64,000 nucleotides of DNA from Saprospira grandis (GTDB taxonomy: Bacteria > Bacteroidota > Bacteroidia > Chitinophagales > Saprospiraceae): assembly GCF_027594745.1 (NCBI RefSeq), contig NZ_CP110854.1, forward strand, positions 1,308,241 through 1,372,240. Direction: 5' to 3'. A model generated the notes under the pieces. The model was given only the letters and a program-made list of their open reading frames with translations. It made no database searches and was not told where the DNA came from. The translations under genes and the position numbers were made by a program. Below are positions 4,063 to 60,278 of the stretch, in pieces; positions within the stretch are counted from its first letter, which is position 1; every line of letters starts with the position of its first letter.

Positions 4063-7000
4063 TTAATTTTGCTCTAGTTTTTGGAGATAAGCGACCACCT
4101 CCATGGCCATATTGTCTAGTTCGGGCTGCTGGGCCTCTACAGCATTGCGCTCTTCTAGCCAAGCAAAGTATTTCTCCTCAAAAGCCTTCATCTCGTTAAT
4201 GTCCAAATAATAGAAGTTGATATTGATATGCGCCGGAGCATTGATGCTAAAGACCGCATGCATAAGATCCTGGAAATCTTCATTTTGGAAACGAGAGGGC
4301 CAAGAGGGCAAAATGATACTCATATCCAGAGAGTAGAAGTCATGGCGAACGTCTAGATTGGGGCGTTCCTCCAAAAAGAACTGAATATTGCTTTGCAAAG
4401 GAATAGCTCCTGATTTAAAGCTATAGACATAGGCCACAATATCGTCAATTTGTTCTTTGGCTCCTTCTCGAGTATAAAAGATTTCTGGACAGCGGGCAAT
4501 CTTACGATCATACTCCTGCAACACCACTTGATAGCTTTCGCCATCCTCTAGGGTTTCAATAATGAAGTTGTCCTTTTTGCTGGCCAATAAATCTAGTTGG
4601 TTACTGAGGTTGCGTTGCTCTTCAAAAGCACCAAACTCATAGCTTTCTAGCAAAGGACGATCTTGGTCATTAACTAGACGGAAAGCGTGGCGATCTTGGG
4701 CCTGCGGACGAAGCAAAATATGCTCTACCACATGCATTCCCTCCGTTTGGTGGTTAATGCGGGCAAAAAACTTAATCAGCTTTTCCAACTCTACCTGAGC
4801 AGCCAAAATACTGCTATATTCTCTAATCTTCACGCAACCCAAATCGGGATTCCCCTTATAGTAAACACTATAGATTTCCTCCCCATCACGCTCTTCCAAA
4901 AGGGCCAAATAGTTATAGCTAAATATACCATTGGCCAAAAGGTCTTGCATGAGCTCGTCCAAATCCTGCCCTCTAAAGATAAACTTAGAACGGTAGTCTA
5001 GGGTTTCTGGCAAACGCTCAGGAGCGGGACCAGGATCTTCTCCCTTCTCAATTTTCTCCAAACGCTCTAGCTCTGCATCTAAATCTATGTAACCCTCAGG
5101 CAACATAGGCGACTCTAGCTGAATGAGGTCGTGAAAATTATCCACTCCTTCTATATGCGCATCTTCATTAAAGATGCGGACCAAAGATTCATTACCTCCC
5201 TGATTGAGATTAAGCAACAAACAAACCCGACGTTCTAGACCTGCCACCTCCGTTTCTAAAAGCTCCAACATCTTTTTGGTAAACTTGATGTTGGTTTCGG
5301 CAATGGCTTCAGTCAAGGTTTCGGGCAAATCCAGGTCCTTCAGCATTTTTTTCGTCTGCTCCTTGGCCACATCCTCCGGATCACGGTAATTGAGGGCCAT
5401 AGAAAAGGCATCTCTCTGATGCTGACGAAGGCTGTAATTCTCCCGCAATTGCTTGTACTGCTGGCGAATCAAATCTCTTTCTACCTCTTCTTTATATTGC
5501 TTAATGAGCGGCTCAAATAGCTCGGCCCACTCTAGCTCTTGCTCATAAATGACATTATAAAGGGCCATGTAGTTGAATCCACGGCTACGGTTTCGACTAA
5601 TGTCGACATAGTTGCGCAAAAACTCCAATTTGGCATTGACTAGCTCATGCTCTGGGCTCTTGGCCTCCCCTTCCGACATATCATAGCCCACATACTGGCT
5701 TACTTTCAATAAAAAGTCGGTGGTAAAACGCTCGCCAAAACGAGCCAGTAAATGGTCCAGTAAACGGTTGCGGCGCTCCACAAAAGGGTCAAATTCCTCT
5801 ACCGTTTCTTCTAGCTTTTTCAAGCGAGCCTCATTGTCCTTGCCCTTCAAGATGTATTGCATCTCGGGCATGTTCTCTGGCAACTGAGAGAAATAACTAC
5901 GGTCCAAATCGCTATCCAATGAAAAGAATTTCTTCACATTGCCCAATTGGGCCAAGTAGTTGGCCATCAGCTGCTCAAAAAAGGATAAATACCCTCTGAG
6001 CTGCTTAATCATGCCCAAACGCTCCCGTGTAGGACGCACACTATTGGGCAAACCAAATGGACTCAAACCATAGGTGGCCGGAAAAGTATTTTGTACCGAG
6101 TAGTAACGCTTAATATCATCTTCCTTCAATACCGAGGGATAATCCTTCTCATTATAGAGCATCTTCATCTGATAGCCCTTCTTATACCGAGCATAAAGCG
6201 AGTACAACAACTGACTAGCCGTGTTGAGGTCCAAATCATAGTTCAAACTCCCCCGCTGAAAACGGATCGGATAAGCATCGGTTTTCCAACGCGCATCAAT
6301 AGTGTCCATATCCAAAACAGGATAGGTCTTTTCCGCAATCCGAATCACATCGCCCTCTACGGGAAAACCATCTTTTTCTACCCGAAAATAATTGATGCGG
6401 CGAACGCCCTCAATATCCGAGATGATTTCAATAATCTTAGAAATATAAACCTCCCGCTTCATCGCTCTGAGGTCCTCTTTCTTAATGATACCATGCACCG
6501 GCACGGGCCCATCAAAAATCTCTTCAATGGCATAGCCCTCTTCCAAAAGTTCATCAATGGTATGGTACTGAATAGAAGGCGTGAGATGCTCCTCCAACTT
6601 GAAGAGAATTTCAGCCAATACTTCTTCTGCCACCACATCCGAACTAATGTCCAAATCGGTATAAATAATAATCTTATCTACATCCAAGACCTCAATGGCC
6701 TCCAAATCTTCACAAAGGTTGCGATGCGCAGCAAATAAAGCATACACCTCTCGCTTAATCTCTTGCAAACGCTGCGGCTGACGAGCACTATCACTCACCT
6801 GCAACAAAATTCGATACAAGCCCTTAATGCCTTGCAAATGATCCCGCACAGGCTCCACCCAAGCATTCTTCACGCCATTCACCCGATCAATAATCAAGCG
6901 GCGATAGTCCTCTATGGTTACCGGATTTGTCGGCAATATCTCCGAGGCATCATAAAAGGTGTTGTTCAAAGCCTGCCGACGGCCCTTCCCTCTAGCATTC

Positions 7001-7221
7001 AATAAATCCTGAATGCTAAAATCCGTGCGAAAGCCCAAATCGGCCAAAGCATAACAAAGCTGTTCCAAAATGGTCACCCCAGGATCATGGGTGTTGTAAT
7101 CGGTCCAAACTTTACCCGATAGTTCTTGCACCATCTGCAAGCCCTCCTCCTTCAAAAAGAAGAAGTCCATACTCTTGTGCGGCGGGGTTTCGCGGAAAAT
7201 CTGAATTGGTTTCTGCGCCAT
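4063..7221 (-). CDS. Large (about 1052 aa) acidic cytoplasmic hypothetical protein with no recognizable domain
   Basis: Long uninterrupted ORF with coding-like composition; no signal peptide, no Walker/TM motifs, E/D/L-rich with coiled-coil-like stretches. Candidate ATG start at 7221 (7233 is TTG). Confidence 0.6.
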   Translation of the reverse strand: MAQKPIQIFRETPPHKSMDFFFLKEEGLQMVQELSGKVWTDYNTHDPGVTILEQLCYALADLGFRTDFSIQDLLNARGKGRRQALNNTFYDASEILPTNPVTIEDYRRLIIDRVNGVKNAWVEPVRDHLQGIKGLYRILLQVSDSARQPQRLQEIKREVYALFAAHRNLCEDLEAIEVLDVDKIIIYTDLDISSDVVAEEVLAEILFKLEEHLTPSIQYHTIDELLEEGYAIEEIFDGPVPVHGIIKKEDLRAMKREVYISKIIEIISDIEGVRRINYFRVEKDGFPVEGDVIRIAEKTYPVLDMDTIDARWKTDAYPIRFQRGSLNYDLDLNTASQLLYSLYARYKKGYQMKMLYNEKDYPSVLKEDDIKRYYSVQNTFPATYGLSPFGLPNSVRPTRERLGMIKQLRGYLSFFEQLMANYLAQLGNVKKFFSLDSDLDRSYFSQLPENMPEMQYILKGKDNEARLKKLEETVEEFDPFVERRNRLLDHLLARFGERFTTDFLLKVSQYVGYDMSEGEAKSPEHELVNAKLEFLRNYVDISRNRSRGFNYMALYNVIYEQELEWAELFEPLIKQYKEEVERDLIRQQYKQLRENYSLRQHQRDAFSMALNYRDPEDVAKEQTKKMLKDLDLPETLTEAIAETNIKFTKKMLELLETEVAGLERRVCLLLNLNQGGNESLVRIFNEDAHIEGVDNFHDLIQLESPMLPEGYIDLDAELERLEKIEKGEDPGPAPERLPETLDYRSKFIFRGQDLDELMQDLLANGIFSYNYLALLEERDGEEIYSVYYKGNPDLGCVKIREYSSILAAQVELEKLIKFFARINHQTEGMHVVEHILLRPQAQDRHAFRLVNDQDRPLLESYEFGAFEEQRNLSNQLDLLASKKDNFIIETLEDGESYQVVLQEYDRKIARCPEIFYTREGAKEQIDDIVAYVYSFKSGAIPLQSNIQFFLEERPNLDVRHDFYSLDMSIILPSWPSRFQNEDFQDLMHAVFSINAPAHININFYYLDINEMKAFEEKYFAWLEERNAVEAQQPELDNMAMEVVAYLQKLEQN

Positions 7222-7303
7222 AGGTCTTATCAATCTAAATAGGGCTCTGCCCTTGGGGTTCTGTTCCGTTCTAAAATATCTTGCGGTAGTGTGTGCTTGT
7301 CTC

Positions 7304-7486
7304 CTATTTGTCTAGTTGCTGCGGGGGGCTCTCTGCATGCATTTGGGCATTGGCCTGCTCATGAATCTTTCCAATCAACTCATATACTTCATTAAATGGC
7401 CGCTGGCCCAAGGCCTGCAAAATCTTATTGATTTCTTGCATATCTAGCTGCAATAGCAGGGGTTTTTCTTCTTTTGTCTTGCCCAT
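7304..7486 (-). CDS. Small (about 60 aa) hypothetical protein immediately upstream of, and co-oriented with, the 1052-aa gene
   Basis: ORF 7304-7552; internal ATG (MGKTKEEK...) at 7486 preferred because an AT-rich promoter-like sequence lies upstream. Confidence 0.3.
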   Translation of the reverse strand: MGKTKEEKPLLLQLDMQEINKILQALGQRPFNEVYELIGKIHEQANAQMHAESPPQQLDK

Positions 7487-11890: not shown

Positions 11891-12200
11891 TTTGTAAACT
11901 GCAAATTAGCTCTGGCGTCACGCCAGAGGCGTTTTGCAACTGCAGATTAGCTCCGGCGCCACGCCAGAGGCATTTTGCAAATGCAGATTAGCTCTGGCGC
12001 CACGCCAGAGGCGTTTTGCAAATGCAGATTAGCTCTGGCGCCACGCCAGAGGCGTTTTGCAAATGCAGATTAGCTCCGGCGTCACGCCAGAGACGTTTTG
12101 CAAATGCAGATTAGCGCTGAACAGCTGTATAAAGCTGTTTTGCAAATGCAAATAAAGGCTAGCGCCAAGCCAGAGGCATTTGTAAACTGAAGATAGGTCC
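11891..12200. repeat. Tandem array of a 41-bp unit (about 7 copies, degenerate at the ends), each carrying a perfect 8-bp-stem hairpin CTCTGGCGyCACGCCAGAG
   Basis: Units GTTTTGCAAATGCAGATTAGCTCTGGCGCCACGCCAGAGGC repeat head-to-tail with 0-3 mismatches and no intervening unique spacers. Confidence 0.9.
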
Positions 12201-13353: not shown

Positions 13354-13399
13354 TACAAATGGTTTACTGAAAAAATAGGTATGTATTTATCTAGGAGGG

Positions 13400-13572
13400 T
13401 TTTGGGGCTGCCCCTGCGGCCTTCGGCCTTGGGTCGGGCTGTGTCGCAGCTCGCAGGTCTGCTCGGCCCTGCGGCGGCTTTGCCGCCTGGGTCTGGCCTG
13501 CGGCCACTGCTGTCCATCCCTCAGCCGCGTCGCTACGCTCCTTTGCGGCCCTTCGGGCCTGTAGGAGGCAGA
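13400..13572 (+). repeat. Intergenic repeat module A, forward
   Basis: TTTTGGGGCTGCCCCTGCGGCCTTCGGCC...CTCGCAGGTCTGCTCGGCCCTGCGGCGGCTTTGCCGCC...CATCCCTCAGCCGCGTCGCTACGCTCCTTTGCGGCCCTTCGGGCC. Confidence 0.85.
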
Positions 13573-13577: not shown

Positions 13578-14021
13578 TTATTTTTTCAGTCGCATTTCGA
13601 GATAAGGATTAGTAAATCCTAATTTTTCATAAAGCTGCTTAGCGGGATTATCTTTTTCTACATGCAGGGCGATATCTCCGGGGGTTTGCTCAATTGCTGC
13701 CTGCATTAGTTGTTTTCCTAGGCCTTTTCCTCTAAATTGCGCATCTACGGCAATATAGACCAGGATATTTTCGGGGATATAGCCCGTCATGCCTGTGCGG
13801 TTAAGTACAGTAGCGCCGGCCAATTGTCCTTGATGATAGATGCTAAAAATCTGGCCTCCAGCGGCTTGTTTTGTCTGGCCCAGGGAGTAGTCCATAGCGG
13901 CAAGAATTTGCTCTTTGGGGTCTCCGTATTGTTCTAGATGTTTAAATAAAAAGTTGGCTATTTCTTCTTTCTCTGTTTCAGTTGGCTGATTTTCAGGAGA
14001 GTAAGATTTGATCGTTGCCAT
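13578..14021 (-). CDS. GNAT-family N-acetyltransferase
   Basis: Acetyl-CoA binding motif QFRGKGLGKQLM (Q/RxxGxG/A); about 147 aa. Confidence 0.8.
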   Translation of the reverse strand: MATIKSYSPENQPTETEKEEIANFLFKHLEQYGDPKEQILAAMDYSLGQTKQAAGGQIFSIYHQGQLAGATVLNRTGMTGYIPENILVYIAVDAQFRGKGLGKQLMQAAIEQTPGDIALHVEKDNPAKQLYEKLGFTNPYLEMRLKK

Positions 14022-21055: not shown

Positions 21056-21290
21056 GGCGCAAAGCGCCTGGCCACAACAAGCCCTTTAGGGCGTAGTTCG
21101 ACGACCAAAGGGAGTAACCGATGCGCAGCAGAGGCGCGAAGCGCCTGGCCTAGCGATGCGGCGGGGTGGCCGAAGGCCAGACCAAGCAGGCTTTGCCTGC
21201 GAAGGGCCGAGCAGACCTGCGAGCCCCAAAGTGTAGCGCCGACGAGCGAAGCGAGGCGGAGGCCCCAAAACAGACAGACAAAAAAACCTA
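21056..21290 (-). repeat. Intergenic repeat, long variant (module C + module A), reverse
   Basis: Contains rc of CGGTTACTCCCTTTGGTCGTCGAACTACGCCCTAAAGGGCTTGTTGT (module C) followed by GGCCTAGCGATGCGGCGGGGTGGCC...GGCCGAGCAGACCTGCGAGCCCC...GGAGGCCCCAAAA. Confidence 0.85.
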
Positions 21291-21309: not shown

Positions 21310-24300
21310 ATGCAAAAAAAAGCAACAGAAGCGCAGTTCTTCTTTTCTCAACTGCTCAAGCTACAGCAAGTAGAGCAACCTTTGGGGGCCAAATATCAGG
21401 CATTAGATGCCCTTTTGGTCCAGCTATTTTTACAATTGACCGAAAAAGAGCGCCTACATTTTAGTGATCGCTCGGCACGGATTGCCTTTTTATCTCATAA
21501 GGAGGACCTCAGTCGCTCGGTTCAATGGCGCATTTACCAAATTATTAAGCGGGCCAAATGGATCCGCAGAAAAGAGCTGGAGCCTACGGCTGGCCAATAC
21601 GCCTCGGCCCTAAAGACCGTGGCCTTTGCCATTGCAGCCCTTTGTCATGTTCCTTTGCCCGAAGAATTGCGGGCCTATTTGCCCAGCGATGAGGAAGAAG
21701 AGCAGGAAGACCGCAACCCCTTCCCTATTAAAGAAGGCATTATTGAGGAGCTCAAAGTGGTGGTTTTGCAAATAGATGCCGAGCAAGAGCTCATCATCTG
21801 CCAACCTTATGGAGAGGACTATACCGACCAGCTCAGGCTGCGTTATAATGTGCCCGAAATCAATGCGCAGTTTAACTCGACCATTGAGCTGATGCAAGAT
21901 CATTTTCCCGCTGGGGCCATTTTGCAATTGCTGCAAGTCTTGGTAGAAGAATCGGGAATTTTGCTGCCCAAGCGCATCATCTTAGAGCCCGACTACCTGG
22001 TTGATGTGACCAGCATTGCCGAATGTTTTCAGCCACAGGGCGCTTCGCCCTACCTCTTTTTGCTCAAAAAGTTTTCGGCCTATGAAAATAGCCTACCTTT
22101 GATGCTGGGAAATATTGCCAACCGCTTTTTGGACCTCTTGAGCAAGAACCCCAAGCTGAGCTTTCAGGAAGAATTTAAGAAGCTCTTTAGCCTTAATCCC
22201 TTGGGCTTTGCCGACTTTAAGGATACCGATATTCGCAAGACCTATCATGAGGCCAAAAACCACTTTATCAACCTTCAGCATATTATCCTCAATGAGTTTC
22301 CCAAGCAGGGCATCGAGCGAGAGCGCATTTTGTTAGAGCCCTCTTTTTACTCTGCCCTTTATGGGATTCAGGGACGTTTGGACCTTTGGCAGCCGCCAGC
22401 AGAAGGCGATGATAAGGCATTGATTGTGGAATTGAAGAGTGGCAAAACCTTTATGCCCAATAAGTACAACCTCAATCATAATCACTATGTACAGACCTTG
22501 CTCTATGGATTGCTGACCAAATCGGTTTATCCTAGCTATAAGAGTTTGGCCCACATTCTTTACTCCAAATTGCAAGAAAAACCGCTGCGTCTAGCCCCTA
22601 GCACGCAGTTTAAGGAGGATGAAGCCTTGGCCCTTCGCAACCAGATGGTGATGATGGAGCGACAGCTGGCCCAATTGGACCAAAAATCACTGGAAGAATA
22701 TGGCCTTTTGCATCAGTTAGGGCCTGCCATTATGCCCAAAGCTAGCGGCTATACCGCCAGAGGATTGGAAGAATTTGAGGCCTGCTTTTCTAAGCTAAGC
22801 GAGCTAGAACGCCGCTACTTTATTGCCTTTTGTAGCTTTATTGCCAAAGAACAAATTTTGGCCAAAACAGGAGTAGAAGGAAATGAACGCGCCAATGGAC
22901 AAGCGGGGCTATGGCTAAGCGAAAGAGCCGATAAAGACGAACATTTTGAGCTTTTGGCGGGACTAGAACTACTAGAAAACAATAGCGAGCAAGAACCCCC
23001 TATTCTCCGCTTTAAGCGAACGGAAAATACCAACCCCTTGGCCAATTTCAGACAGGGCGATATTGCTATTTTGTATCCCGAAATGGGCCAGGATGACAAT
23101 GTCTTGAAGCATCAGATTTTTAAGGGCTCTATTTCTCAAATCAATGCCGAAGAGCTTTGTTTCAAGCTTTACTCTCCCCAATGTAGCGGCAGCGTTTTTG
23201 AGGCGGCCAAAAGCTGGAGCTTAGAACACGATATGCTCGATAAGGGCTTTACGGTTCAGTATCAATCGCTCTTCAAATTCATGAATTTCCATCCGGCCAA
23301 GCGACAGCTTTTATTGGGCCAAAGGGCCCCGCAAAAAAGCAGCGCTCCCCAAAATCGGAGCTTTATGCAGCCCTATTTGGGCGAAGACCAAAAGAGGATC
23401 CTCAACAAGGCCTTGGATGCCCAAGACTACTTTTTGTTGGTAGGCCCTCCGGGCACGGGCAAAACCAAGTTCATGCTGGCCCAAATGGTCGAATATCTCC
23501 ACCGAAACAGCCAAGAAAACATCTTGCTTTTGGCCTATACCAACCGAGCTGTAGATGAAATTTGCGAAGCCATTGAGGAAGTGGGTATTGATGATTATCT
23601 GCGGATGGGCAGCCGCTATTCTTGCGATCCTCGCTTTGAACATCGGATGTTTTCGGTGCAAACAGAAGCCCTAGCTAGCCGCAAAGATCTGCGAGCGACC
23701 ATCGACAAGCATCGGGTATTTGTCTCTACGGTTTCTAGCATGCTCAACCGTCCGCTTTTGCTCAAGCTCAAGCAATTTAATACCGTCATTATTGATGAGG
23801 CATCACAGATTTTGGAGCCCATGTTGCTCGGTTTGCTTCCGCATTTTCAGCGCTTTGTGCTTATTGGCGACCATAAGCAGTTGCCGGCGGTAGTTTTGCA
23901 GGACAAAGAGCAGTCGGCGGTTAAAGATGAGTTGCTCCAAAGCATTGGCTTGCGCAATCGCCGCAACTCCCTCTTTGAGCGCTTGTTTGAGCAGGCCCAA
24001 AAAGAAGGCTGGACCCATTGCTACGATCAATTGCAGCATCAGGGGCGGATGCATGCCGAAATTGCCCGCTTTCCCAGCCAATTTTTCTATGATAATAAGT
24101 TGTTGGAACTACCAGAAGACAATCCGATTGGCGACTGGCAGCAGCAGCCCCTACCCTTCCGTCCGATGCCCCAGGCCTCTGCTTTGGAGCAGCTTTTGGC
24201 CCAACATCGTCTGCTCTTTATTCCTAGTCAATCGGATTATCAGGGCAACAGCAAAACCAATGAGGAAGAAGCCATTCGGGTGGGCGAATTGGTCCATGCT

Positions 24301-24693
24301 TTTCGGAATTTATACGAGCAGCAGGGCGGCGGTTTTGCCCCAGAGGACCTTGGCATCATCACGCCTTTTCGGGCGCAGATTGCCCAGATTCGCCATGTTT
24401 TGGCCCAATATAATATGGGTTATGAGCAGTGTACCATTGATACGGTGGAGCGGTATCAGGGCGGGGCGCGCAAAATCATTCTCTTGTCTTTGGCCATCAA
24501 TATGAGTTATCAATTGCCGGCCATTGTTTCTCTTTCCGATGATGAGCAGGTAGACCGCAAGCTCAATGTGGCCCTTACTCGAGCTCGGCAGCAGCTGGTG
24601 GTTTTGGGCAATCCCAAGCTATTGGCCAATGATCCTCGTTATGCGGCCCTAATGGCCTGGATTAAGGAGCGGGGCGGCTATTTTACGCCTTAG
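21310..24693 (+). CDS. Nuclease-helicase fusion: N-terminal RecB/Cas4-like PD-(D/E)xK nuclease plus C-terminal SF1 Upf1/Dna2-family helicase (Dna2-like / Nhi-like architecture)
   Basis: Nuclease motifs GRLDLW ... IVELKSGK ... YVQTLLY (D, ExK, QxxxY). Helicase motifs: Walker A LVGPPGTGKT, motif II VIIDEASQ, ITPFRAQ, TIDTVERYQGGARKIILLSLA and ALTRARQQLVVLG (Upf1-like motifs V/VI). Confidence 0.75.
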   Translation: MQKKATEAQFFFSQLLKLQQVEQPLGAKYQALDALLVQLFLQLTEKERLHFSDRSARIAFLSHKEDLSRSVQWRIYQIIKRAKWIRRKELEPTAGQYASALKTVAFAIAALCHVPLPEELRAYLPSDEEEEQEDRNPFPIKEGIIEELKVVVLQIDAEQELIICQPYGEDYTDQLRLRYNVPEINAQFNSTIELMQDHFPAGAILQLLQVLVEESGILLPKRIILEPDYLVDVTSIAECFQPQGASPYLFLLKKFSAYENSLPLMLGNIANRFLDLLSKNPKLSFQEEFKKLFSLNPLGFADFKDTDIRKTYHEAKNHFINLQHIILNEFPKQGIERERILLEPSFYSALYGIQGRLDLWQPPAEGDDKALIVELKSGKTFMPNKYNLNHNHYVQTLLYGLLTKSVYPSYKSLAHILYSKLQEKPLRLAPSTQFKEDEALALRNQMVMMERQLAQLDQKSLEEYGLLHQLGPAIMPKASGYTARGLEEFEACFSKLSELERRYFIAFCSFIAKEQILAKTGVEGNERANGQAGLWLSERADKDEHFELLAGLELLENNSEQEPPILRFKRTENTNPLANFRQGDIAILYPEMGQDDNVLKHQIFKGSISQINAEELCFKLYSPQCSGSVFEAAKSWSLEHDMLDKGFTVQYQSLFKFMNFHPAKRQLLLGQRAPQKSSAPQNRSFMQPYLGEDQKRILNKALDAQDYFLLVGPPGTGKTKFMLAQMVEYLHRNSQENILLLAYTNRAVDEICEAIEEVGIDDYLRMGSRYSCDPRFEHRMFSVQTEALASRKDLRATIDKHRVFVSTVSSMLNRPLLLKLKQFNTVIIDEASQILEPMLLGLLPHFQRFVLIGDHKQLPAVVLQDKEQSAVKDELLQSIGLRNRRNSLFERLFEQAQKEGWTHCYDQLQHQGRMHAEIARFPSQFFYDNKLLELPEDNPIGDWQQQPLPFRPMPQASALEQLLAQHRLLFIPSQSDYQGNSKTNEEEAIRVGELVHAFRNLYEQQGGGFAPEDLGIITPFRAQIAQIRHVLAQYNMGYEQCTIDTVERYQGGARKIILLSLAINMSYQLPAIVSLSDDEQVDRKLNVALTRARQQLVVLGNPKLLANDPRYAALMAWIKERGGYFTP

Positions 24694-24747
24694 TTTTCTC
24701 CTTTTTGATCTTAATTTATCCCGCTAGTCATCATGACTAGGGGGATA

Positions 24748-24978
24748 TTTTTTTGGGGCCTGCCGCCTTTGGCGGCCGGGCCCTTGCAGGGCTCGCAGGT
24801 CTGCTCGGCCCTGCGTCGCCTTCGGCTCCTTGGTCTGGCCTGCGGCCACCCTTTCAGGCCCCTAGGCCTGCGGCCCTTCGGGCCTGTTTACTGTAGGTTG
24901 AAACCTACAGCAACAACGGTATTGCTTCGCAATGAAGCATAAATGAGGGTTAAAACCCTCATGAAGTTAACTTCTCGG
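24748..24978 (+). repeat. Composite repeat: module A (forward) fused to module B (three consecutive palindromic hairpins)
   Basis: Module A TTTTTTTGGGGCCTGCCGCCTTTGGCGGCC...CTCGCAGGTCTGCTCGGCCCTGC...GGCCCTTCGGGCC followed by CTGTAGGTTGAAACCTACAG / TATTGCTTCGCAATGA / ATGAGGGTTAAAACCCTCAT. Confidence 0.85.
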
Positions 24979-25041
24979 CCATCTTTTGATAAAAATTTCA
25001 GGCTAGTCAAGGCATATCCCCAAAGCGGCTTCTTTTGGTCC

Positions 25042-26982
25042 CTAACGGTTGAGGATGATGATCTCTACCTTTCGTTTTTGATGCTTGGCCATATTACTTT
25101 CTATTACGCCTCGGCCATCAGTTGTAATTTGGGCGCTTGTGATGCCCAGCTCCTTCATAAACTTGGTGACATAACCCGCCCGCTTCTGCGAAAGGGGTAG
25201 ATTGAACTCCTTATCCCCCACATCATCGGCAAAGCCTGTTACCTGAATTTTTAGACTTTCTGGATCTTCAAATTGCTCTAGTAGTTTTTGTATTTGCTCT
25301 TTTTGCAACTCGCTCAAATCATATTTTCCGGTCTCAAAGTAGACCGATAAGTTTTTGCGCAAACGAGGCTTGGGCGGCTCGGCCATTACGGGCTCTTCTT
25401 CAGGGATTTTTCCGTTGGGAGTCAGTTGCACATCTATTCGCTTGATGGCCTCCCCTGCCGCTCGCTCAAAGTAATCGGCCCCAATAAAGTTATCATAGCC
25501 CTCTTTAGAAATAATATAGGAGTAAGAAGCTCCACTAGGCAAACAAAGGAAAAATCGGCCCGCCTTATCCGTTTCAAAAACCCCAATGTTTTCGCCTTCA
25601 TTTCTCAGGCGAACTCTAGCCCCAGCCAAAGGTTCGGCGGTGGCCTCATCATAGAGGTAGCCATCCAAAAATACATGCTCTACAGCAGGAGCCATAGCAG
25701 CGGGAATATGGCAGCTATAAAGGTCCAAGCCCCCTTTTCCTTCTGGTCGGTCAGAAGAAAAGTAGGCATACTCGCCATCAGGAGAGACCACAATGCCGGC
25801 CTCACGGAAAGGAGAATTGACGCCCTCGCCCATATTTACTGGTCTAGACCACTCACCATTTTCTAATAATAAGGTCCGAAAAGCATCGGCTTCGCCCAAT
25901 CCCGGATGTCCATCAGACACAAAGTAGAGGGTTTGGCCATCTGGAGCAATAAAAGGGGCTTCTTCATCTCCTTCGGTATTGATTTTTGGTCCAAGGTTTT
26001 CGGGAACGCCCCAGCGGCCATCGGCCATTAGCTCGGCCATCCAGATATCGCTACCGCCAAAGCCCCCCTCTCGAGTAGAGACAAAGTACATTTTATAGCC
26101 ATCGCAACTAATAGAGGGCTGAGAGTCCCAGGCTTCGCTATTTAGGCCTACTGCTGGCCCCACGCTATCTACAATTTCATTTTCGCTATCATATTCGGCC
26201 ACATAAATATCGCAGCCGCCCTGCACATTTTCCCAGGCACAGGCGGCAAAGAAAATCCGTCGACCACAAACTGTAAACTTGGCCATGCCTTCATTATAAG
26301 GTGTATTGATGGCTGGCCCAATAGATTTTGGCGATTTCCATTCGCCCTTCTCGTTTTTGCGCAGCATCAAAATATCTTCATCTCCCGAGCGGTTGGAGGT
26401 ATAAAGGAGCATATCGCCATTGGCCCGCAAGGTGGGTAAAAACTCATCAAATTTGGAGTTGGCCATGCCGGGCAAAAGCTCGGCCTTGCCCGTAGAGCCC
26501 GTATATTCCATTTCTATAGCATATTCGCAGCTCTTAATGTTTCGGTCCAAATACGCATCATAGTTGCGGGCAGCCCCCTCTTCTTTGATGCTATAGTTTT
26601 TGGGGTCTGCATATTTGTAGAGCTCAAAGTACTCTAAGGCTTTACTATAATTATAGGCCTTCATCTGTAGTTCGGCGGCCTCAAAATAGGCAGATCTAGA
26701 CAAAAGCGGATTTTGCTTAAAGAGCCGCTCATAGGCCATTCTTGCCGTTTCATAATCGCCTGTTTCTTTGGCCACCACCCCCAACAAGCGCTGAGCCGCA
26801 GCAAAGTTGGGCTTTTGCTTAATCGCTTGCTTTAGACTAGCTGCAGCCGCCTCATATTTGGCATTATTAAAATAGTATTCGGCATCTTCCATATGTTCTT
26901 TGGCCGATTTGCTCAGGGGCTGGGCCCTAAGACTGAGGCTACAGAAGAGCAGCAAAAAAAAGAAGTATGTAGCTTTCATCAT
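25042..26982 (-). CDS. Envelope protein with N-terminal TPR repeats, TolB-like PD40 beta-propeller repeats and a C-terminal OmpA peptidoglycan-binding domain
   Basis: Signal peptide; TPR-like helices; repeated ...LYFVSDR / PDGQTLYFVSD PD40 motifs; C-terminal OmpA motif (NLPLSQKRAGYV...RKVEIII). Confidence 0.8.
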   Translation of the reverse strand: MMKATYFFFLLLFCSLSLRAQPLSKSAKEHMEDAEYYFNNAKYEAAAASLKQAIKQKPNFAAAQRLLGVVAKETGDYETARMAYERLFKQNPLLSRSAYFEAAELQMKAYNYSKALEYFELYKYADPKNYSIKEEGAARNYDAYLDRNIKSCEYAIEMEYTGSTGKAELLPGMANSKFDEFLPTLRANGDMLLYTSNRSGDEDILMLRKNEKGEWKSPKSIGPAINTPYNEGMAKFTVCGRRIFFAACAWENVQGGCDIYVAEYDSENEIVDSVGPAVGLNSEAWDSQPSISCDGYKMYFVSTREGGFGGSDIWMAELMADGRWGVPENLGPKINTEGDEEAPFIAPDGQTLYFVSDGHPGLGEADAFRTLLLENGEWSRPVNMGEGVNSPFREAGIVVSPDGEYAYFSSDRPEGKGGLDLYSCHIPAAMAPAVEHVFLDGYLYDEATAEPLAGARVRLRNEGENIGVFETDKAGRFFLCLPSGASYSYIISKEGYDNFIGADYFERAAGEAIKRIDVQLTPNGKIPEEEPVMAEPPKPRLRKNLSVYFETGKYDLSELQKEQIQKLLEQFEDPESLKIQVTGFADDVGDKEFNLPLSQKRAGYVTKFMKELGITSAQITTDGRGVIESNMAKHQKRKVEIIILNR

Positions 26983-35981: not shown

Positions 35982-36228
35982 TCCGCTGCGGCTTCGCCTT
36001 GCGGCGGTTACTCCCTTCGGTCGTCGAACTGCGGACTAAAGTCCTTGTTGTCGCAGCTCGCTGCTGTTTTTGTGGGGCCTCCGCCTCCCTTTGGTCGTCG
36101 GCGCTACGTTTCGCAGCTCGCTATTCGCTCGGCCCTGCGCCAGCAAGCCGGCTAGGTCTGGCCTGCGGCCACTGCTGCACATCGCTAGGCCAAGGCGGCT
36201 TTGCCGCCTTCTGCTCCAAGAAAGTAAT
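35982..36228 (+). repeat. Intergenic repeat, long/dimeric variant (module C + module A), forward
   Basis: TTTTGGGGCCTCCGCTGCGGCTTCGCC...GGTTACTCCCTTCGGTCGTCGAACTGCGGACTAAAGTCCTTGTTGTCGCAGCTCGC, then a second TTTTTGTGGGGCCTCCGCCTCCC...CTCGCTATTCGCTCGGCCCTGC...CATCGCTAGGCCAAGGCGGCTTTGCCGCC. Confidence 0.85.
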
Positions 36229-41335: not shown

Positions 41336-41597
41336 TTTTTGGGGCCTCCGCTGCGGCCTGCGGCCTTGCGGCGGTTACTCCCTTTGGTCGTCGAACTGCG
41401 CCCTAAAGGGCTTGTTGTCGTTGCGCAGCTCGCTGCTATTTTGGGGCCTCCGCCTCCCTTCGGTCGTCGGCGCTACGTTTCGCAGCTCGCTGTTCGCTCG
41501 GCCCTGCGGCCTGACGGCCTGGGTCTGCGGCTTCGCCGCACTGCTGCACATCGCTAGGCCAAATGGAAGTCCTGCGCTTCGGCCATCCTTTGGTAAA
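41336..41597 (+). repeat. Intergenic repeat, long/dimeric variant (module C + module A), forward
   Basis: TTTTTTGGGGCCTCCGCTGCGGCCTGCGGCC...GGTTACTCCCTTTGGTCGTCGAACTGCGCCCTAAAGGGCTTGTTGTCG..., then a second TTTTGGGGCCTCCGCCTCCCTTCGG...CTCGCTGTTCGCTCGGCCCTGC...CATCGCTAGGCC. Confidence 0.85.
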
Positions 41598-43208: not shown

Positions 43209-43360
43209 GACCTTCGGTCATTCCTACCCCCAAAAGCTGCTGGGCCTGAAAACAGCAGCCCGCCATAAAATTAGAAGCAGGGGCTTTTAAGCTCCTGCGG
43301 CAAGAAAAATGAGGACCAACAAGATTGGCTGCGGCCTTTAGGCTGCAGTAAGCTCATTTA

Positions 43361-43578
43361 TATATCATTGCGAAGCAATACCATTGTTGCTGTAGGTTTC
43401 AACCTAAGTTCAATCCATGAGGGTTTTAACCCTCATCCATATATCATTGCGAAGCAATACCATCTGGCTGTAGGTTTCAACCTAAGTTCAATTCATGAGG
43501 GTTTTAACCCTCATCCATATATCATTGCGAAGCAATACCATCTGGCTGTAGGTTTCAACCTACAGTTAAAAGGGCCGA
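43361..43578 (-). repeat. Tandem array (78 bp x about 2.7) of module B (three palindromic hairpins)
   Basis: Units ATATCATTGCGAAGCAATACCATCTGGCTGTAGGTTTCAACCTAAGTTCAATyCATGAGGGTTTTAACCCTCATCCAT repeated at 43363, 43441 and 43519. Confidence 0.9.
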
Positions 43579-43712
43579 AGGCCCGCGGCTGAGGGATGGA
43601 CAGCAGTGGCCGAAGGCCAGACCCAGCCGCTGAAGGCGGCGCAGGGCCGAGCGAACAGCGAGCTGCGAAACAGCCCGACCCAGCCAAAGGCTGGGGCAGC
43701 CCCAAAAAAAGA
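43579..43712 (-). repeat. Intergenic repeat module A, reverse, directly abutting the module-B array
   Basis: GGGCCGAAGGCCCGCGGCTGAGGGATGGACAGCAGTGGCC...GGCCGAGCGAACAGCGAGCTGCGAAACAGCCCGACCC...GGGGCAGCCCCAAAAAAAG. Confidence 0.85.
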
Positions 43713-43768: not shown

Positions 43769-46700
43769 CTATTTGGCCAAAACGAAAGGCAATTGTAGGC
43801 GGCCATCCTTACCTTCTAGTTGAAGGATATATTGGCCAGCGGGCAAATCGTTGAGGTTAAAGTTGTATTGTTGTTGGATGCTTGCGGTTTGCGTCCAAAC
43901 CACTTGGCCCAAAGCATTGAAGATGCGAATCTGCTGCTCGCCTTCTAGGGCTTGCTCCAATTGGAGTTGGAACTGACCGTTGTTGGGGTTGGGGAAGAGC
44001 TTAATGTTTTGCTCATTCCAAGTGGTAATGCTGGTGCTACAGTCAATGAAAGCAATGTTAATGCTAGCGCTGTTGCTACAAGCACCAGCTGTAGTATAAG
44101 TAACACTGTGGTTAGCATTGATTGGGCTATTATCAAAGTCAATTGTTCCAGTATTAGGATCAAGAACTAGGCCTGTACTACTACTGAAGGTTCCGCCTGA
44201 AACCATTGTAGTTGGCAAAGTGGTAGCTTGAGTTCCTAGGCAGAAAGTTGTGGTATCATAGACAAAGCTAGCATCATCACGAGCATTAAGTACGAGCATA
44301 ACGGTATCTACATCGGGGCAATTCCCTTGTGTAGTATAAGAAATCACATAAGCACCCGCTTGGCTATTGGCGAGGTCAATTGTACCGCCAAAGCTCTCGA
44401 TAGCGATACCAGGCGTAGAGCTAAACAAACCGTTATTGCTGGCATTGATTTGCGCAATGGGGTTTGTTCCATCTAGGCAGTAGCTGCTCATGGCATAGCT
44501 AATATCTGCGGTATCGGCCGCATCGATATTGATGACAAAAGTATCGAGATCGGCACAAGCGTTGGGCGTAGTATAGACGATAGCGTGAAGACCAGCACTA
44601 GAGTTATCTACATTGATTGCACCAGTAGTAGGATCGAGATCAACTACATTAGAGGGGCTGCTAAAGCTACCGCCTTGGGTAGCTGCGATAGTAGGCGTAA
44701 CAGTACCCGCACCAAAGCAATAATTAGCCATAGGGTAGCTAATGTCAGCGGTGTCGGCATCTGCAATAGCTACAGCAACAGTGTCATAATCCATACAGCT
44801 CATGTTTGGACCAACACCATAAATAACGCTATAGGCTCCAATTGCAGAAGCACCAGCAGAAATCTCACCAGTTAGGCTATCAATATTAAGGCCTGCAGTG
44901 CTCATATAAGTACCGCCAAGGTCACCATTGTTAGTCACAGCAACTTGTCCAGAGTTTTGGCAATAAGATGCAAAAGGATAGCTAATATCAGCGGAGGGGC
45001 TCTCCGCATTTTGAGTGATATTTAGGACATAAGCCCCTGTGTTTGTACTGTAACCTTCTACCATTACATAAATGGTGTCGAGGTAATTAACAGGCGTGCC
45101 CAAAATTTCTGAGCGCGTGCCACAGTTATCGTCATTGCCCGCAATCTGGCTGATTCCAGCATCATAGATACGGAGATAAGTATCGTAGCTAGAGCCACAA
45201 AGTGAGGCGTCAATAGTGGTCACACAAGGATCAGTGATAATCAGTTGATACCAAACATCGGCAGAAGAGTTGGCGATAAAGTCGGTATAACAGCTAGCGG
45301 TACTGCTTGTATCATTAAAAGTAGCCGTAGATACCATAATAGGATCTGTGGGCGTATCTCCATTGACCGCACAAAGGGTTGTAAAGCTAATCATGCTCCA
45401 GGCAGAAGTATCGCCAGGGGCACAAACTTCACGGACATAAGCCTCATAAGTTGTATTATCCATAAGACCCGTTTGGTTGCTACTGTTGGTATTGATTACG
45501 GCAGTAGTTCCTGTGGGGGTATTTCCAGCCATGACTACTTCTACTTGGAAGTTAGAGCCAGTTCCCGTCCAGTTCAAGTCGGCAGAAGTGGCGGTAATAT
45601 TGCTAGCGGCTAGGCCAGAAACGGCCAAACAAGTAGGCAAGTCATCAAAGGCTACATCATCAATTAGGATATCGTTGTAGAAAGCCGTTCCAGCATCTTC
45701 GACTACAGTAAAGCGGGCCTGTACAGGGCCAGTAATCGTAAAGACACTCAAGTCGACCATCACCTCATGCCAGTTTGGAAAATCTTGGCGGATAGTGTCT
45801 ACAGTGGTCCAGTTGGCCCCATCATAGATATCAATAATCAAAGTATTGTTATCGCCGGGGTTGGTGGTATTGTTAGAGTATACCCAAAAAATAAGGCCTG
45901 GGCGAGTCAAGGCCGTAATATCTACCTGAGGCGTCTCTAGAGTAGAGATTTGGCTAGCTCCAGTTGGAGTAGAACCATCAATCCAAGCATAATTTCCAGC
46001 ATTTCCAGTATGGTCGCCAGCATTTCCAGCGGCATAACCTGCAGCCGTACTATACTTCCAAGCCTCAGAACCACTCTCGGTCCAGCAGTTAGGCGTAGCA
46101 GAACCATCAAAGGTTTCTAGATAAGGAGCGACAAAGGTATTACAAGCTGTTGTAAAGCTCAAAGGAGCTGTATAAGCTGCAGTATCACCTACCCCACAGA
46201 ATGGGCGCACATAGACATCATAGTCCGTAGCAGCCATTAGTCCAGTTAGATTAAATGGAGTAGTTATGGCCGATACCATAGTTCCTGCACCTTGAGTAAA
46301 GCCCGTAGGGCCATACTCTACGATATAAGAACCTGCAGAAACCGCATTATTGTCGGTCCAATCCAAATCCACAGCAGTAGGCATAACATTAGAAGCAGTC
46401 ATATTGGCTGCAGTCAAACAAGTGGGCAAGTTGGCAAAGCTAATGTCATCTAGCAAGATGTCATTGTAAAAAGCATCAGTAGGACAATCTTCTACTACCG
46501 TAAAGCGTGCCTGTACATTACCCGTAATCGTATAAACAGAGAGGTCAACTTTAAACTCCACCCAGTCAATGCTATCCTGACGGAAAGTATCCACATTGTT
46601 CCAACTGGCCCCATCAAAAAAGTCAATGATCAAGGTGTTGTTATCTCCAGGGTTATTGGTATTATTACTAAAAACCCAATAAGTCAAAGTAGGGGTCGTT

Positions 46701-48076: not shown

Positions 48077-48133
48077 GTTTTAGTCTAGCCTACTTTCTAC
48101 TAGGACAGCAGCTACTGATGCAGTGGTTGCTGT

Positions 48134-48342: not shown

Positions 48343-48490
48343 CTAGGGCCGCAAGGCCCTAATTGGCTTAGGGATGGATAGCAGTGGCCCGAAGGGCCAG
48401 AGCCAGGCGCTGAAAGCGCCGCAGGGCCGAGCAGACCTGCGAGCTGCGCCACAGCCCGACCCGACCAAAGGGAGGGGAAGCCCCAAACCC
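48343..48490 (-). repeat. Intergenic repeat module A, reverse (right arm of an inverted pair)
   Basis: GGGCCGCAAGGCCC...GGCTTAGGGATGGATAGCAGTGGCCCGAAGGGCCAGAGCC...GGCCGAGCAGACCTGCGAGCTGCG...GGGGAAGCCCCAAA. Confidence 0.85.
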
Positions 48491-59915: not shown

Positions 59916-60039
59916 CGGTATTCGTCGCTGCGCTCCTCATTCGCCAATATGTCCCCGCCCACCCAGCCCTCTGCGGGATTCCCTAAGGAATCCCTCAGGG
60001 AGGCGGGCAACAAGCTTGCTGCAGACTTGGTCCAAATTC

Positions 60040-60118
60040 AACGCATGAGGGTTGAAACCCTCATGCCTATAAGATGGCGAAGCAATACCGCTCTTGCTGT
60101 AGGTGTTCAGCTACAGCT
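60040..60118 (-). repeat. Module B (three hairpins, partly degenerate), reverse
   Basis: ATGAGGGTTGAAACCCTCAT / GGCGAAGCAATACC / CTGTAGGTGTTCAGCTACAG. Confidence 0.7.
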
Positions 60119-60275
60119 AAAAAGGGCCGAAGGCCCGCAGGCTGAGGGATGGATAGCAGTGGCCCAAAGGGCCAGACCCAGCCGCCTTTGGCGGCGCAGG
60201 GCCGAGCAGACCTGCGAGCTGCGACACAGCCCGACCCGAAGGCCCAAAGGGCCGAAGGGGCAGCCCCAAAAAAAG
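60119..60275 (-). repeat. Intergenic repeat module A, reverse; with 59723-59915 it forms an inverted pair bracketing module B
   Basis: GGGCCGAAGGCCCGCAGGCTGAGGGATGGATAGCAGTGGCCC...GGCCGAGCAGACCTGCGAGCTGCGACACAGCCCGACCC...GGGGCAGCCCCAAAAAAAG. Confidence 0.85.
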
Positions 60276-60278
60276 AAA

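What the first reader, a model, noticed from the sequence alone, without database searches (positions are those of the whole stretch)
24889..24978. Module B: a triple-palindrome element attached to module A, tandemly amplified at 43361-43578 and present again at 60040-60118
Three consecutive near-perfect palindromes make up an ~80-bp module: CTGTAGGTTTCAACCTACAG, CATTGCGAAGCAATG and ATGAGGGTTTTAACCCTCAT. It always abuts the ...CATCCCTCAGCC end of a module-A copy, at 24748-24978 in forward orientation and at 43361-43712 and 60040-60275 in reverse. At 43361-43578 it occurs as 2.7 tandem 78-bp units, which produces a fake 74-aa ORF. The fixed A-B polarity suggests the two modules are parts of one composite element, for example MITE internal sequence or a processing or recognition site, rather than unrelated repeats.
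Basis: seen in the sequence. Interest (0 to 1): 0.5.

Follow-up and report, generated by a model that had tools for sequence, protein, structure and literature searches.

The report
Hairpin cassette in Saprospira mosaic repeats
Module B is a real ~80-base unit of three DNA hairpins, an optional add-on to a very abundant GC-rich intergenic repeat (module A) of the bacterium Saprospira grandis; it most resembles the mosaic "junk" repeats known from other bacteria (REP/BIME, BOX) and shows no sign of being a gene.

Summary
B consists of H1 CTGTAGGTTGAAACCTACAG, H2 ATTGCTTCGCAAT and H3 ATGAGGGTTRAAACCCTCAT. It lies at 24891-24971(+), 43353-43567(-, 78 nt x 2.7, giving a spurious 74-aa ORF) and 60037-60116(-), each time after the 3' end of an A copy.

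The window is Saprospira grandis. A occurs about once per 2.7 kb (~1,100-1,500 per genome). It folds into a closed multi-helix structure with a covarying terminal helix and swappable hairpin slots. Only a few percent of A copies carry B.

In strain DSM 2844, 39 perfect H3 sites fall into two main contexts. One is A-end then B, often followed by module C or D. The other is a diverged B' nested inside A. A third version, B*, sits in inverted A-B...B*-A arrangements.

Orthologous loci in 4-5 strains show four kinds of change:
- a precise 76-nt B' presence/absence
- a 2.7 versus 1.7 unit array
- a clean 26-nt loss of H3
- B+C present in one strain only

No transposase, Rfam family, phage copy or publication was found.

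Best reading: a BIME/BOX-like mosaic repeat reshuffled by ectopic gene conversion and hairpin slippage. How it spreads is inferred, not shown. Interest is moderate.

The parts
24720..24745 (+). Terminator-type hairpin of the upstream helicase gene (21310-24693). Its U-tract is the T-run that opens module A.
   Evidence: Sequence. MFE of the 34 nt upstream of the T-run is -17.3 kcal/mol. Conserved in 4 strains.
24745..24868 (+). Module A copy (subfamily ending ...CAGGCCCCTAGGCC), T-run included.
   Evidence: nhmmer hit 24745-24886, 88 bits. Alignment and consensus fold. Orthologous A present in DSM 2844, Lewin and CCB-QB6.
24869..24890 (+). Linker hairpin GGCCCTTCGGGCC followed by TGTTTA (terminator-like).
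   Evidence: Terminator-like match at 24872-24884.
24891..24971 (+). Module B, single unit: H1 24891-24910, H2 24921-24933, H3 24943-24962, tail GAAGTTAAC.
   Evidence: (81 bits). Absent from the orthologous site in three other strains.
24972..25015 (+). Module C (TTCTCGGCCATCTTTTGATAAAAATTTCAGGCTAGTCAAGGCAT). It recurs after B in L002, L018, L020, L057 and L109.
   Evidence: The junction with the 3' flank of the OmpA-family gene is shown.
43353..43567 (-). Module B tandem array, 78 nt x 2.7. Unit 1 is 43486-43567, unit 2 is 43408-43485, and unit 3 is 43353-43407 with H3 cut after ATGAG.
   Evidence: TRF, nhmmer. The orthologous array in DSM 2844 has one unit fewer. The spurious ORF is 43368-43592.
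43568..43586 (-). Linker hairpin GGGCCTTCGGCCC followed by TTTTAA.
   Evidence: Terminator-like match at 43584-43572.
43587..43712 (-). Module A copy (subfamily ending ...CATCCCTCAGCC), T-run included.
   Evidence: nhmmer hit 43712-43569, 101 bits. It lies directly behind the terminator hairpin 43742-43713 of gene 43769-46996.
43329..43348 (.). Hairpin CTGCGGCCTTTAGGCTGCAG, which bounds the array distally. The same hairpin closes the composite in L031.
60037..60116 (-). Module B, degenerate copy: H1 CTGTAGCTGAACACCTACAG, H2 ATTGCTTCGCCAT, H3 intact.
   Evidence: nhmmer, 70 bits. Orthologous copies exist in Lewin (H3 deleted) and CCB-QB6.
60119..60139 (-). Linker hairpin GGGCCTTCGGCCC followed by TTTTTAG.
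60140..60276 (-). Module A copy. It starts 3 nt after the stop codon of the ketoacyl-synthase gene 60279-61565.
   Evidence: nhmmer hit 60276-60121, 110 bits..
48360..48489 (-). Module A copy whose first hairpin slot is empty in this strain. The same slot holds the nested B' cassette in DSM 2844 and in one metagenome lineage.

Best explanation
Module B is an optional cassette of three hairpins (~81-87 nt). It belongs to a Saprospira-specific, non-coding mosaic repeat family.

The core of the family is module A. It is ~130 nt, GC-rich and present at 1,100-1,500 copies per genome. It forms a closed multi-helix fold with hypervariable hairpin slots.

Accessory modules attach at fixed points and in fixed polarity:
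- B, C and D attach after A's 3' end.
- B' sits inside A's first slot.
- B* sits on the partner arm of inverted pairs.

Shown here:
- the anatomy
- conservation of the hairpin architecture across diverged versions
- extragenic location in both orientations
- indel and cassette-swap polymorphism of B and of the A slots at orthologous sites in closely related strains

Inferred:
- The modules are propagated and reshuffled mainly at the DNA level. The proposed routes are ectopic gene conversion between the many A scaffolds, and hairpin- or microhomology-driven replication slippage. Slippage would account for the 78-nt tandem amplification and the clean hairpin deletions.
- B itself has no gene-like function.
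- Any effect is a by-product of being a stable hairpin block at the 3' ends of genes, for example transcription termination or protection of mRNA 3' ends.
For: Anatomy and chance.

Organism and census:
- 39 exact H3 sites in S. grandis DSM 2844.
- They split into 21 class I, 15 nested class II and 3 other.
- Further copies and the B* version were found by profile search.

Architecture is kept while stems differ:
- 93% of cells are paired, and 7 of 21 pairs change on both sides.
- More H3 variants occur in metagenome relatives: ATGCGGGTT..AACCCGCAT and GGAGGCTT..AAGCCTCC.

Module A:
- 135 copies in 360 kb.
- No orientation or intergenic-type bias: ++31, --26, +-22, -+18.
- Consensus fold with a covarying terminal helix and internal helices.

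Turnover at orthologous sites:
- The 76-nt B' is present in DSM 2844 and in JGI contig L080. It is absent from the window strain, Lewin and ENA contig L081, which does not match the tree of the adjacent gene. The second A slot carries three different hairpin alleles.
- The tandem array has 2.7 versus 1.7 units, and the 3' half of its A copy is swapped.
- A is conserved in 4 strains, but B+C occurs only in the window strain, at the edge of a ~9-kb difference.
- H3 is cleanly deleted in Lewin, and H1 and H2 are decaying in two strains.

The slot alleles recur in non-orthologous A copies, as ectopic conversion would predict.

No coding capacity and no transposase next to the elements. No Rfam family. 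No phage copy.
Against: - No mechanism of spread was observed directly.
- The B' indel has exact, identical boundaries in two lineages. The empty allele is identical in three. That fits site-specific insertion or excision as well as it fits conversion.
- The conserved flanks of the slots are only ~10-25 nt, which is short for RecA-dependent conversion.
- B-bearing composites are mildly co-oriented with the upstream gene: about 26 of 37, by crude gene calls. Many A copies start 0-10 nt after a stop codon. A selected RNA-level role is therefore not excluded.
- The covariation is mostly between subfamilies, so it reflects few independent events.
- Only about 10-15% of any one genome was examined.
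Confidence: 0.55

Rival explanations
1. B, B' and B* (and perhaps A) are non-autonomous mobile elements. A single-strand-specific transposase encoded elsewhere in the genome (RAYT / IS200-IS605-like Y1 HUH enzyme, or an IS110-type recombinase) moves them. It would recognise the GGTT-NN-AACC hairpins, insert at defined points such as hairpin loops of A, and excise precisely without target duplication.
For: - The 76-nt indel of B' inside A's first slot is precise and has no target-site duplication. Its boundaries are identical in two lineages.
- All 16 B' copies share the same junctions.
- H1 carries GTAG/CTAC, as GTAG-type REPs do (for the definition).
- Copies are ~90% alike, which suggests recent spread.
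- H1 and H3 share a conserved palindromic core that could be a protein site.
Against: - tblastn with E. coli RayT finds nothing in 645 kb of Saprospira sequence.
- No transposase lies beside any element or between convergent B copies.
- The GTAG of H1 is base-paired, not a free tag.
- Class I junctions with upstream sequence vary (TTTTTA|, GATA|, GGGC|), so no common target is evident.
- Orthologous B copies persist across strains about 93% identical and decay in place.
Confidence: 0.22
2. The composite acts as RNA. It would be co-transcribed at the 3' ends of genes, and the hairpins would serve as terminators, 3'-exonuclease blocks or processing and recognition sites. B would then be kept by selection on that role.
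For: - B-bearing composites are co-oriented with the upstream gene in about 26 of 37 cases.
- Many A copies begin 0-10 nt after the stop codon.
- The A/B linker is a GC hairpin plus T-run and matches the terminator pattern.
- The predicted fold is strong: z = -6.6 for A-B-C as RNA.
- Hairpin architecture is conserved across diverged versions.
Against: - A as a whole has no orientation bias and also sits between divergent genes.
- Two of the three window composites lie behind the gene's own strong terminator.
- The terminator-like linker precedes B, so B would mostly not be transcribed from upstream.
- Orthologous B copies accumulate stem-breaking changes and lose H3 outright.
- B is absent from the same site in sister strains.
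- No Rfam match.
Confidence: 0.15
3. The hairpins, as duplex palindromes, are binding sites for a nucleoid-associated or regulatory protein. This would parallel IHF and gyrase binding at E. coli BIMEs. B would add sites to the A scaffold.
For: H1 and H3 share the palindromic core GGTT-NN-AACC, which is the most conserved feature across B, B' and B*. By background knowledge, BIMEs and Correia elements bind IHF.
Against: There is no evidence for any binding protein. Stem positions outside the core covary, which points to intrastrand pairing rather than duplex recognition. Copies decay freely.
Confidence: 0.05

Closest known systems
BOX elements of Streptococcus pneumoniae (boxA-boxB(n)-boxC)
   Same: Both are modular, non-coding intergenic repeats. 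An internal ~45-80-nt module is optional and occurs in a variable number of tandem copies (here 1, 1.7 and 2.7). Both are predicted to fold into stable hairpins. Neither has an associated transposase. Copy number differs between strains. (BOX properties are from background knowledge.)
   Different: No sequence relation is expected, as the phyla differ, and none was tested. Here the core module is a ~130-nt closed multi-helix unit present more than 1,000 times, about ten-fold more than BOX. It has hypervariable hairpin slots and a nested cassette version (B'). Most copies lack B altogether.
REP sequences and BIMEs of enterobacteria and pseudomonads (GTAG-type REPs, REPINs, RAYT)
   Same: Both are extragenic palindromic units at high copy, assembled with other short motifs into mosaics. 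Both are species-specific and often lie downstream of genes. H1 contains GTAG...CTAC. Subfamilies differ by complementary stem changes (PMC3733652).
   Different: The GTAG in H1 is inside the stem, not an unpaired tag. The three hairpins are different and lie in direct series, not as inverted doublets. No RAYT was found in the DNA sampled. Module A is far more complex than a REP.
Insertion into REP/BIME hairpin loops (IS1397, ISKpn1; IS targeting of REPs, PMC1525189)
   Same: One repeat sits precisely inside a hairpin of another repeat. B' occupies the loop of A's first slot hairpin (CCG...CGG).
   Different: Those are full insertion sequences with transposase genes and target duplications. 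B' is 76 nt, non-coding and has no duplication.
Correia/NEMIS and other bacterial MITEs
   Same: Small, abundant, intergenic and structured. Presence/absence polymorphism between strains. Can affect neighbouring transcripts.
   Different: B has no terminal inverted repeats. No target-site duplication and no related IS were seen. A's termini are complementary over only 5 covarying base pairs.

Membership tests
GTAG-type REP / REPIN-RAYT system | Short (20-40 bp) imperfect palindrome, extragenic, repeated many times | tested here: met
   H1 and H3 are 20-nt palindromes and H2 is 13-15 nt. All copies seen are intergenic. There are 39 exact H3 sites in one 4.4-Mb genome.
GTAG-type REP / REPIN-RAYT system | GTAG tetranucleotide at one end, not involved in base pairing (PMC3733652) | tested here: not met
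   In H1 (CTGTAGGTT..AACCTACAG) GTAG pairs with CTAC inside the stem. H2 and H3 have no GTAG.
GTAG-type REP / REPIN-RAYT system | REPs arranged as inverted doublets (REPIN) of the same unit | tested here: not met
   B is three different hairpins in fixed direct order. The inverted partner B* lies 60-120 nt or more away and has a different H2.
GTAG-type REP / REPIN-RAYT system | A RAYT (Y1 transposase) gene in the genome, flanked by the repeats | tested here: inconclusive
   tblastn with E. coli RayT gave no hit below E = 3.8 in 645 kb of Saprospira DNA. The ORF between inverted A copies at 13578-14021 is a GNAT acetyltransferase. Whole genomes could not be searched.
BIME (bacterial interspersed mosaic element) | Mosaic combination of palindromic units with a small set of other conserved motifs | tested here: met
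   Combinations seen: A, linker hairpin, B x1-2.7, then C or D; A with nested B'; A-B...B*-A; module E.
BIME (bacterial interspersed mosaic element) | Successive palindromic units alternate in orientation | tested here: not met
   Units within A-B composites, and in the tandem array, are all head-to-tail.
BIME (bacterial interspersed mosaic element) | Bound by IHF, DNA gyrase or Pol I | not testable with these tools
   Needs biochemistry or ChIP.
BOX-type modular repeat | Fixed terminal modules with a variable number of tandem internal modules | tested here: met
   A, then B (1, 1.7 or 2.7 units), then C, D or another module. Unit number differs between strains at one locus.
BOX-type modular repeat | Sequence homology to pneumococcal boxA/B/C | not tested
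None is expected across phyla.
MITE | Terminal inverted repeats matching those of an autonomous IS | tested here: not met
   B has no terminal inverted repeats. A has only a 5-bp complementary terminal helix. No IS was found beside or between elements.
MITE | Target-site duplication flanking insertions | tested here: not met
   The filled and empty alleles of the B' site show no duplication: TTCC|TTTGG versus TTCC|B'|TTCGG.
Any Rfam RNA family | Match at or above the family's gathering score | tested here: not met
   Only two tRNAs (1229-1401) matched in the whole window. The best match over 24650-25100 was 19.6 bits against a cut-off of 49.9.
Intrinsic terminator | GC-rich hairpin followed directly by a T-run | tested here: inconclusive
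   The A/B linker hairpin fits the pattern at 24872-24884 and 43584-43572. H1, H2 and H3 themselves are not followed by T-runs on the element strand. One reverse-strand match occurs at H3 (24962-24943).

The most novel reading that the evidence does not exclude
B, B' and B* would be a new kind of miniature mobile hairpin cassette. It would insert into, and excise precisely from, defined positions of a second, highly structured repeat (module A, more than 1,000 copies), namely its hairpin loops and its 3' end. It would do so without target duplication, driven by an as yet unidentified single-strand DNA recombinase or by a templated hairpin-replacement process. The same process would generate the hypervariable, always perfectly paired hairpin slots of A.
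Probability: 0.2. Interest if true: 0.7.

Novelty: new variant of a known kind. Interest (0 to 1): 0.45.

Why it matters
About 5% of this stretch of the S. grandis genome consists of one structured repeat family, and B is one of its accessory cassettes. No publication describing the family turned up in the searches made here. Closely related strains carry different hairpin cassettes at the same scaffold positions. That offers a natural system for studying how bacterial mosaic repeats are built and reshuffled, whether by gene conversion or by a dedicated enzyme. How such repeats are built is an open question for REP/BIME and BOX elements as well.

There are practical consequences too:
- The repeats break short-read assemblies. 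Logan and ENA contigs end at them.
- They create spurious ORFs, such as the 74-aa ORF.
- One marks the edge of a rearrangement: a ~9-kb difference at the B+C junction.

Tried and rejected
- RAYT guess: the 147-aa ORF (13578-14021) flanked by inverted A copies looked like a RAYT. Pfam shows a GNAT acetyltransferase.
- Autonomous element: I looked for a transposase between convergent B copies. L064 4798-6545 holds two small ORFs (123 and 139 aa), not scanned against Pfam. L049 4290-6121 holds a 501-aa ORF that reads like a type I methylase by eye. Neither looks like a transposase.
- RayT tblastn against all 645 kb of Saprospira DNA held: nothing.
- Rfam at gathering and at permissive thresholds: nothing.
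- tRNA-like origin of H3 (GGGTTCGAACCC-like T-arm): rejected. The loop is 4-6 nt rather than 7, and the tRNA model does not match.
- CRISPR: rejected. The 78-nt units are contiguous, with no spacers.
- Integron attC: rejected. A lies in both orientations among housekeeping genes.
- Phage origin: three pattern scans of viral contigs were all empty.
- The H3 matches in Amycolatopsis are a different 46-nt palindromic repeat and are unrelated.
- Literature: four searches found no description of Saprospira repeats. The S. grandis genome papers are not in the searchable library, so a brief mention there cannot be excluded.
- One exact-protein look-up returned only a short contig that ends at the repeat.
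- Replication-strand bias could not be tested. In the window, A is 12 on the + strand and 11 on the - strand, on a single replichore by GC skew.

Full report

Yes. Reading the three regions shows the same ordered set of hairpins:
- H1: CTGTAGGTTGAAACCTACAG
- H2: (T)ATTGCTTCGCAAT(G)
- H3: ATGAGGGTT[A/G]AAACCCTCAT

Pattern searches support this:
- H3 gives 4 exact matches against 0.03 expected.
- H1 gives 5 matches against 0.01 expected.
- H2 gives 5 on-target matches against 0.23 expected.

Tandem Repeats Finder reports 43353-43567, period 78, 2.7 copies, 94% matches. The 74-aa ORF is 43368..43592(+). Its peptide repeats with the array, so it is an artefact. As single-stranded DNA, B folds into exactly three hairpins (-19.3 kcal/mol, z = -6.9).

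In all three loci B follows the 3' end of a module-A copy in the same polarity. Four details need correcting:
- The A copy at 24748 ends ...CCCCTAGGCC, not ...CATCCCTCAGCC.
- A GC hairpin plus T-run separates the A core from B.
- The unit runs 9 nt past H3, to GAAKTKAAC.
- The third copy is degenerate in H1 and H2.

**2. Organism and scale**

Hits elsewhere were scattered and unrelated. The window's proteins are exact matches to an S. grandis chromosome of 4,250,550 bp.

A profile of module A finds 23 copies in the window and 135 in 360 kb. That is one per ~2.7 kb, roughly 1,100-1,500 per genome and about 5% of the window.

A lies in both orientations and in all kinds of intergenic region: ++31, --26, convergent 22, divergent 18.

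RNAalifold on 60 copies gives a closed multi-helix structure:
- The terminal helix, GGC[C/U][U/G] with [A/C][G/A]GCC, covaries. A fourth state, GGCTT/AAGCC, is visible.
- Internal helices covary as well.
- At least two hairpin slots are always paired but highly variable in sequence.

So A is a discrete structured unit. B lies outside its closing helix.

**3. What B is, genome-wide**

The 39 H3 sites fall into two main contexts.
- Class I (about 24 sites): A-end, then a linker, then H1-H2-H3. Module C, or module D (which ends in a bidirectional terminator-like hairpin), often follows. About 22 of the 24 follow a full A or an A remnant in the same orientation.
- Class II (15 sites, plus one with an imperfect H3): a diverged version, B', with the same H3. 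Its H1' is CGCYRGGTT..AACCCAGCG and its H2' is CGCAAAGCG-GTAT-CGCTTTGCG. It is nested inside A, between the GGGGCTGCCCC head and GGGTCGGGCTG, in the loop of A's first slot.

Profile searching also found a third version, B*. It has H1, then AACGAATGCGTT in place of H2, then ATGGAGGGTT..AACCCTCCAT. It sits on the opposite arm of inverted A-B...B*-A arrangements (L056, L031, L035).

On an alignment of 45 copies of the three versions:
- The three-hairpin structure is paired in 93% of cells, against 34-46% for slid controls.
- 7 of 21 pairs change on both sides.

These changes are mostly between subfamilies, so independent events are few.

A metagenome scan with H1 added a Saprospira-like population with further compensated H3 variants: ATGCGGGTT..AACCCGCAT, GGAGGCTT..AAGCCTCC and GAGGATT..AATCCTC. 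There, 19 of 30 sites follow an A end. Full B copies (L089, L108) and B-like modules in ~400-nt non-coding tandem repeats (L088, L112) have no adjacent A.

The A-to-B polarity is therefore a strong rule, not an absolute one. B is also a rare accessory: 3 of 23 A copies in the window, and a few percent genome-wide.

**4. Evolutionary behaviour at orthologous sites**

Four comparisons were possible.

(a) The A copy at window 48360-48489. Its first slot is empty in the window strain, in Lewin and in ENA contig L081. It holds a 76-nt B' in DSM 2844 and in JGI contig L080.
- The boundaries are identical and there is no target duplication.
- The pattern does not follow the tree of the adjacent gene. 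Window, Lewin and JGI are about 97% alike, and ENA and DSM 2844 are 94% alike.
- The second slot carries three different hairpin alleles, again incongruent with the tree.

(b) The tandem array. It has 2.7 units in the window and 1.7 in DSM 2844. The distal junction is the same, but the 3' half of A is swapped.

(c) Downstream of the helicase gene. The terminator and A are conserved in four strains. B+C is present only in the window strain. It sits at the edge of a ~9-kb difference that includes a large secreted-protein gene.

(d) Downstream of the ketoacyl-synthase gene. A-B is present in the window strain, Lewin and CCB-QB6.
- H1 and H2 carry stem-breaking changes in two strains.
- Lewin has lost exactly H3 plus 6 nt, 26 nt in all.

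Together these show that B and the A slots are discrete exchangeable units, and that individual B copies are not protected from decay. The slot alleles recur in unrelated A copies. This is what ectopic conversion from other copies would produce.

**5. Relation to genes and transcription**

Neighbouring genes are ordinary: a helicase, OmpA-family proteins, a ketoacyl synthase, ribosomal protein L20 and a GNAT acetyltransferase. No transposase was found.

A copies co-oriented with the upstream gene fall into two classes:
- Some start 0-10 nt after the stop codon.
- Others start ~50-57 nt after it, directly behind a strong terminator hairpin whose U-tract is A's own T-run.

Two of the three window composites are of the second kind. 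The A/B linker (GGGCCTTCGGCCC + TTTTAA) matches the terminator pattern.

B-bearing composites are co-oriented with the upstream gene in about 26 of 37 cases. The gene calls are crude, and the two-sided binomial p is about 0.02 by my own calculation.

This leaves room for RNA-level side effects. It does not fit a selected RNA function, given the orientation-neutral distribution of A and the decay and loss of B.

**6. Mechanism: what is shown and what is inferred**

Shown:
- modular architecture
- fixed attachment points and polarity
- a conserved hairpin design
- extragenic location
- indel, copy-number and cassette-swap polymorphism

Inferred (confidence about 0.55):
- Propagation and reshuffling occur by ectopic gene conversion among the many A scaffolds and by hairpin- or microhomology-mediated slippage.
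- The tandem junction GAATTGAAC|TTAGGTTGAAAC joins two TTGAA(A)C motifs.
- The first duplication predates the split between the window strain and DSM 2844.

The main rival (about 0.22) is mobilisation by an unseen single-strand DNA transposase. The exact, duplication-free B' indel fits that well. However, no such gene was found in 645 kb, and the GTAG of H1 is paired, unlike the free tag that defines GTAG REPs. An RNA role (about 0.15) and a protein-binding role (about 0.05) remain possible.

**7. Comparison with known families**

Architecturally the closest are pneumococcal BOX elements (fixed end modules with a variable tandem internal module) and BIMEs (mosaics of palindromic units and other motifs).

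It fails defining tests for:
- GTAG-REP/REPIN: the tag is paired, there are no inverted doublets, and RAYT was not found.
- MITEs: no terminal inverted repeats, no target duplication and no partner IS.
- Every Rfam family.

Features that appear new for this kind of repeat:
- the large, closed, covarying scaffold at more than 1,000 copies
- its always-paired hypervariable slots
- a three-hairpin cassette that exists in external, nested and inverted-partner versions

Four literature searches found no description of it. The S. grandis genome papers were not searchable.

**8. Verdict**

B is an optional hairpin cassette of a Saprospira mosaic repeat family, a new variant of a known kind. Interest is moderate (0.45). 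It would rise if the precise insertion and excision of the cassette proved to be enzyme-driven.

Noticed in passing
window 11891-12119: A 41-nt tandem array, 5.6 copies, 92% matches. The unit is GTTTTGCAAATGCAGATTAGCTCTGGCGCCACGCCAGAGGC and contains the perfect palindrome CTCTGGCG-CCA-CGCCAGAG. It lies between convergent genes. It is a hairpin-based repeat distinct from A and B.
   Followed up: no
window, all 23 module-A copies (e.g. 13398-13544, 48133-48269): Module A occurs once per ~2.7 kb, about 5% of the window. It has a closed consensus fold, a covarying 5-bp terminal helix and hairpin slots that are always paired. The slots differ between orthologous copies of closely related strains.
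   Followed up: partly
window 41375-41438, 21071-21143, 35988-36054: A further conserved module, E (GGTTACTCCCTTTGGTCGTCGAACTGCGCCCTAAAGGGCTTGTTGTCG), is attached to some A copies. The motif CTCCCTTYGGTCG also fills A's first slot in several copies.
   Followed up: no
window 24972-25041 versus L068, L070, L072, L075: The window strain lacks about 9 kb that separates the helicase and OmpA-family genes in DSM 2844, Lewin and CCB-QB6. That stretch includes a 1,672-2,451-aa gene with a T9SS sorting tail. Modules B+C sit exactly at this junction.
   Followed up: partly
L070 ~6950-7400 and L068 ~6880-6960: A 24-nt tandem repeat, CCAGACCGAACTAGTTYACYK, lies downstream of the helicase locus. Lewin has about 17 copies and DSM 2844 has 3.
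   Followed up: no
L003, L007-L009, L014-L019, L022, L032, L033, L036, L042, L044, L051, L052, L059, L060, L063, L065 (Amycolatopsis spp.): A 46-nt perfect palindrome, GTCGTGAGTGGTAATGAGGGTTAGAACCCTCATTACCACTCACGAC, recurs in intergenic DNA of several Amycolatopsis genomes. It shares its 18-nt core with H3 but is otherwise unrelated.
   Followed up: partly
L101 3000-3250 (Ga0209417_1000007, 650-kb contig of another organism): A cluster of REP-like hairpins (CCCTGTAGGTTAAAACCTACAG, CCCGTAGGTTGCACCTACGG and others). It shows that the GTAGGTT..AACCTAC hairpin also exists as a repeat outside Saprospira.
   Followed up: no
L088 2500-4050 and L112 300-950 (Ga0193958): Non-coding tandem repeats of ~400 nt, each with H1 plus ATGGAGGCTTGAAAGCCTCCAT. 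In L088 they lie between an ORF that reads like a type I restriction specificity subunit (by eye; not scanned against Pfam) and a 1,347-aa ORF. No module A is adjacent.
   Followed up: partly
window 1229-1302 and 1328-1401: Two adjacent tRNA genes with identical Rfam scores (70.2 bits), apparently a tandem duplicate.
   Followed up: no
class II copies, e.g. L010 4374-4452, L037 6025-6103: In H1' the forward-strand A.C or C.A mismatches would be G.T wobbles on the reverse strand: 26 A.C/C.A cells against 4 G.T cells in the B alignment. This is a weak hint about which strand folds. It comes from a single subfamily.
   Followed up: partly
L067, L073, L074, L079, L082, L083: Short-read assemblies (Logan, ENA) of Saprospira end within or next to module A. 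The repeat family fragments assemblies.
   Followed up: no
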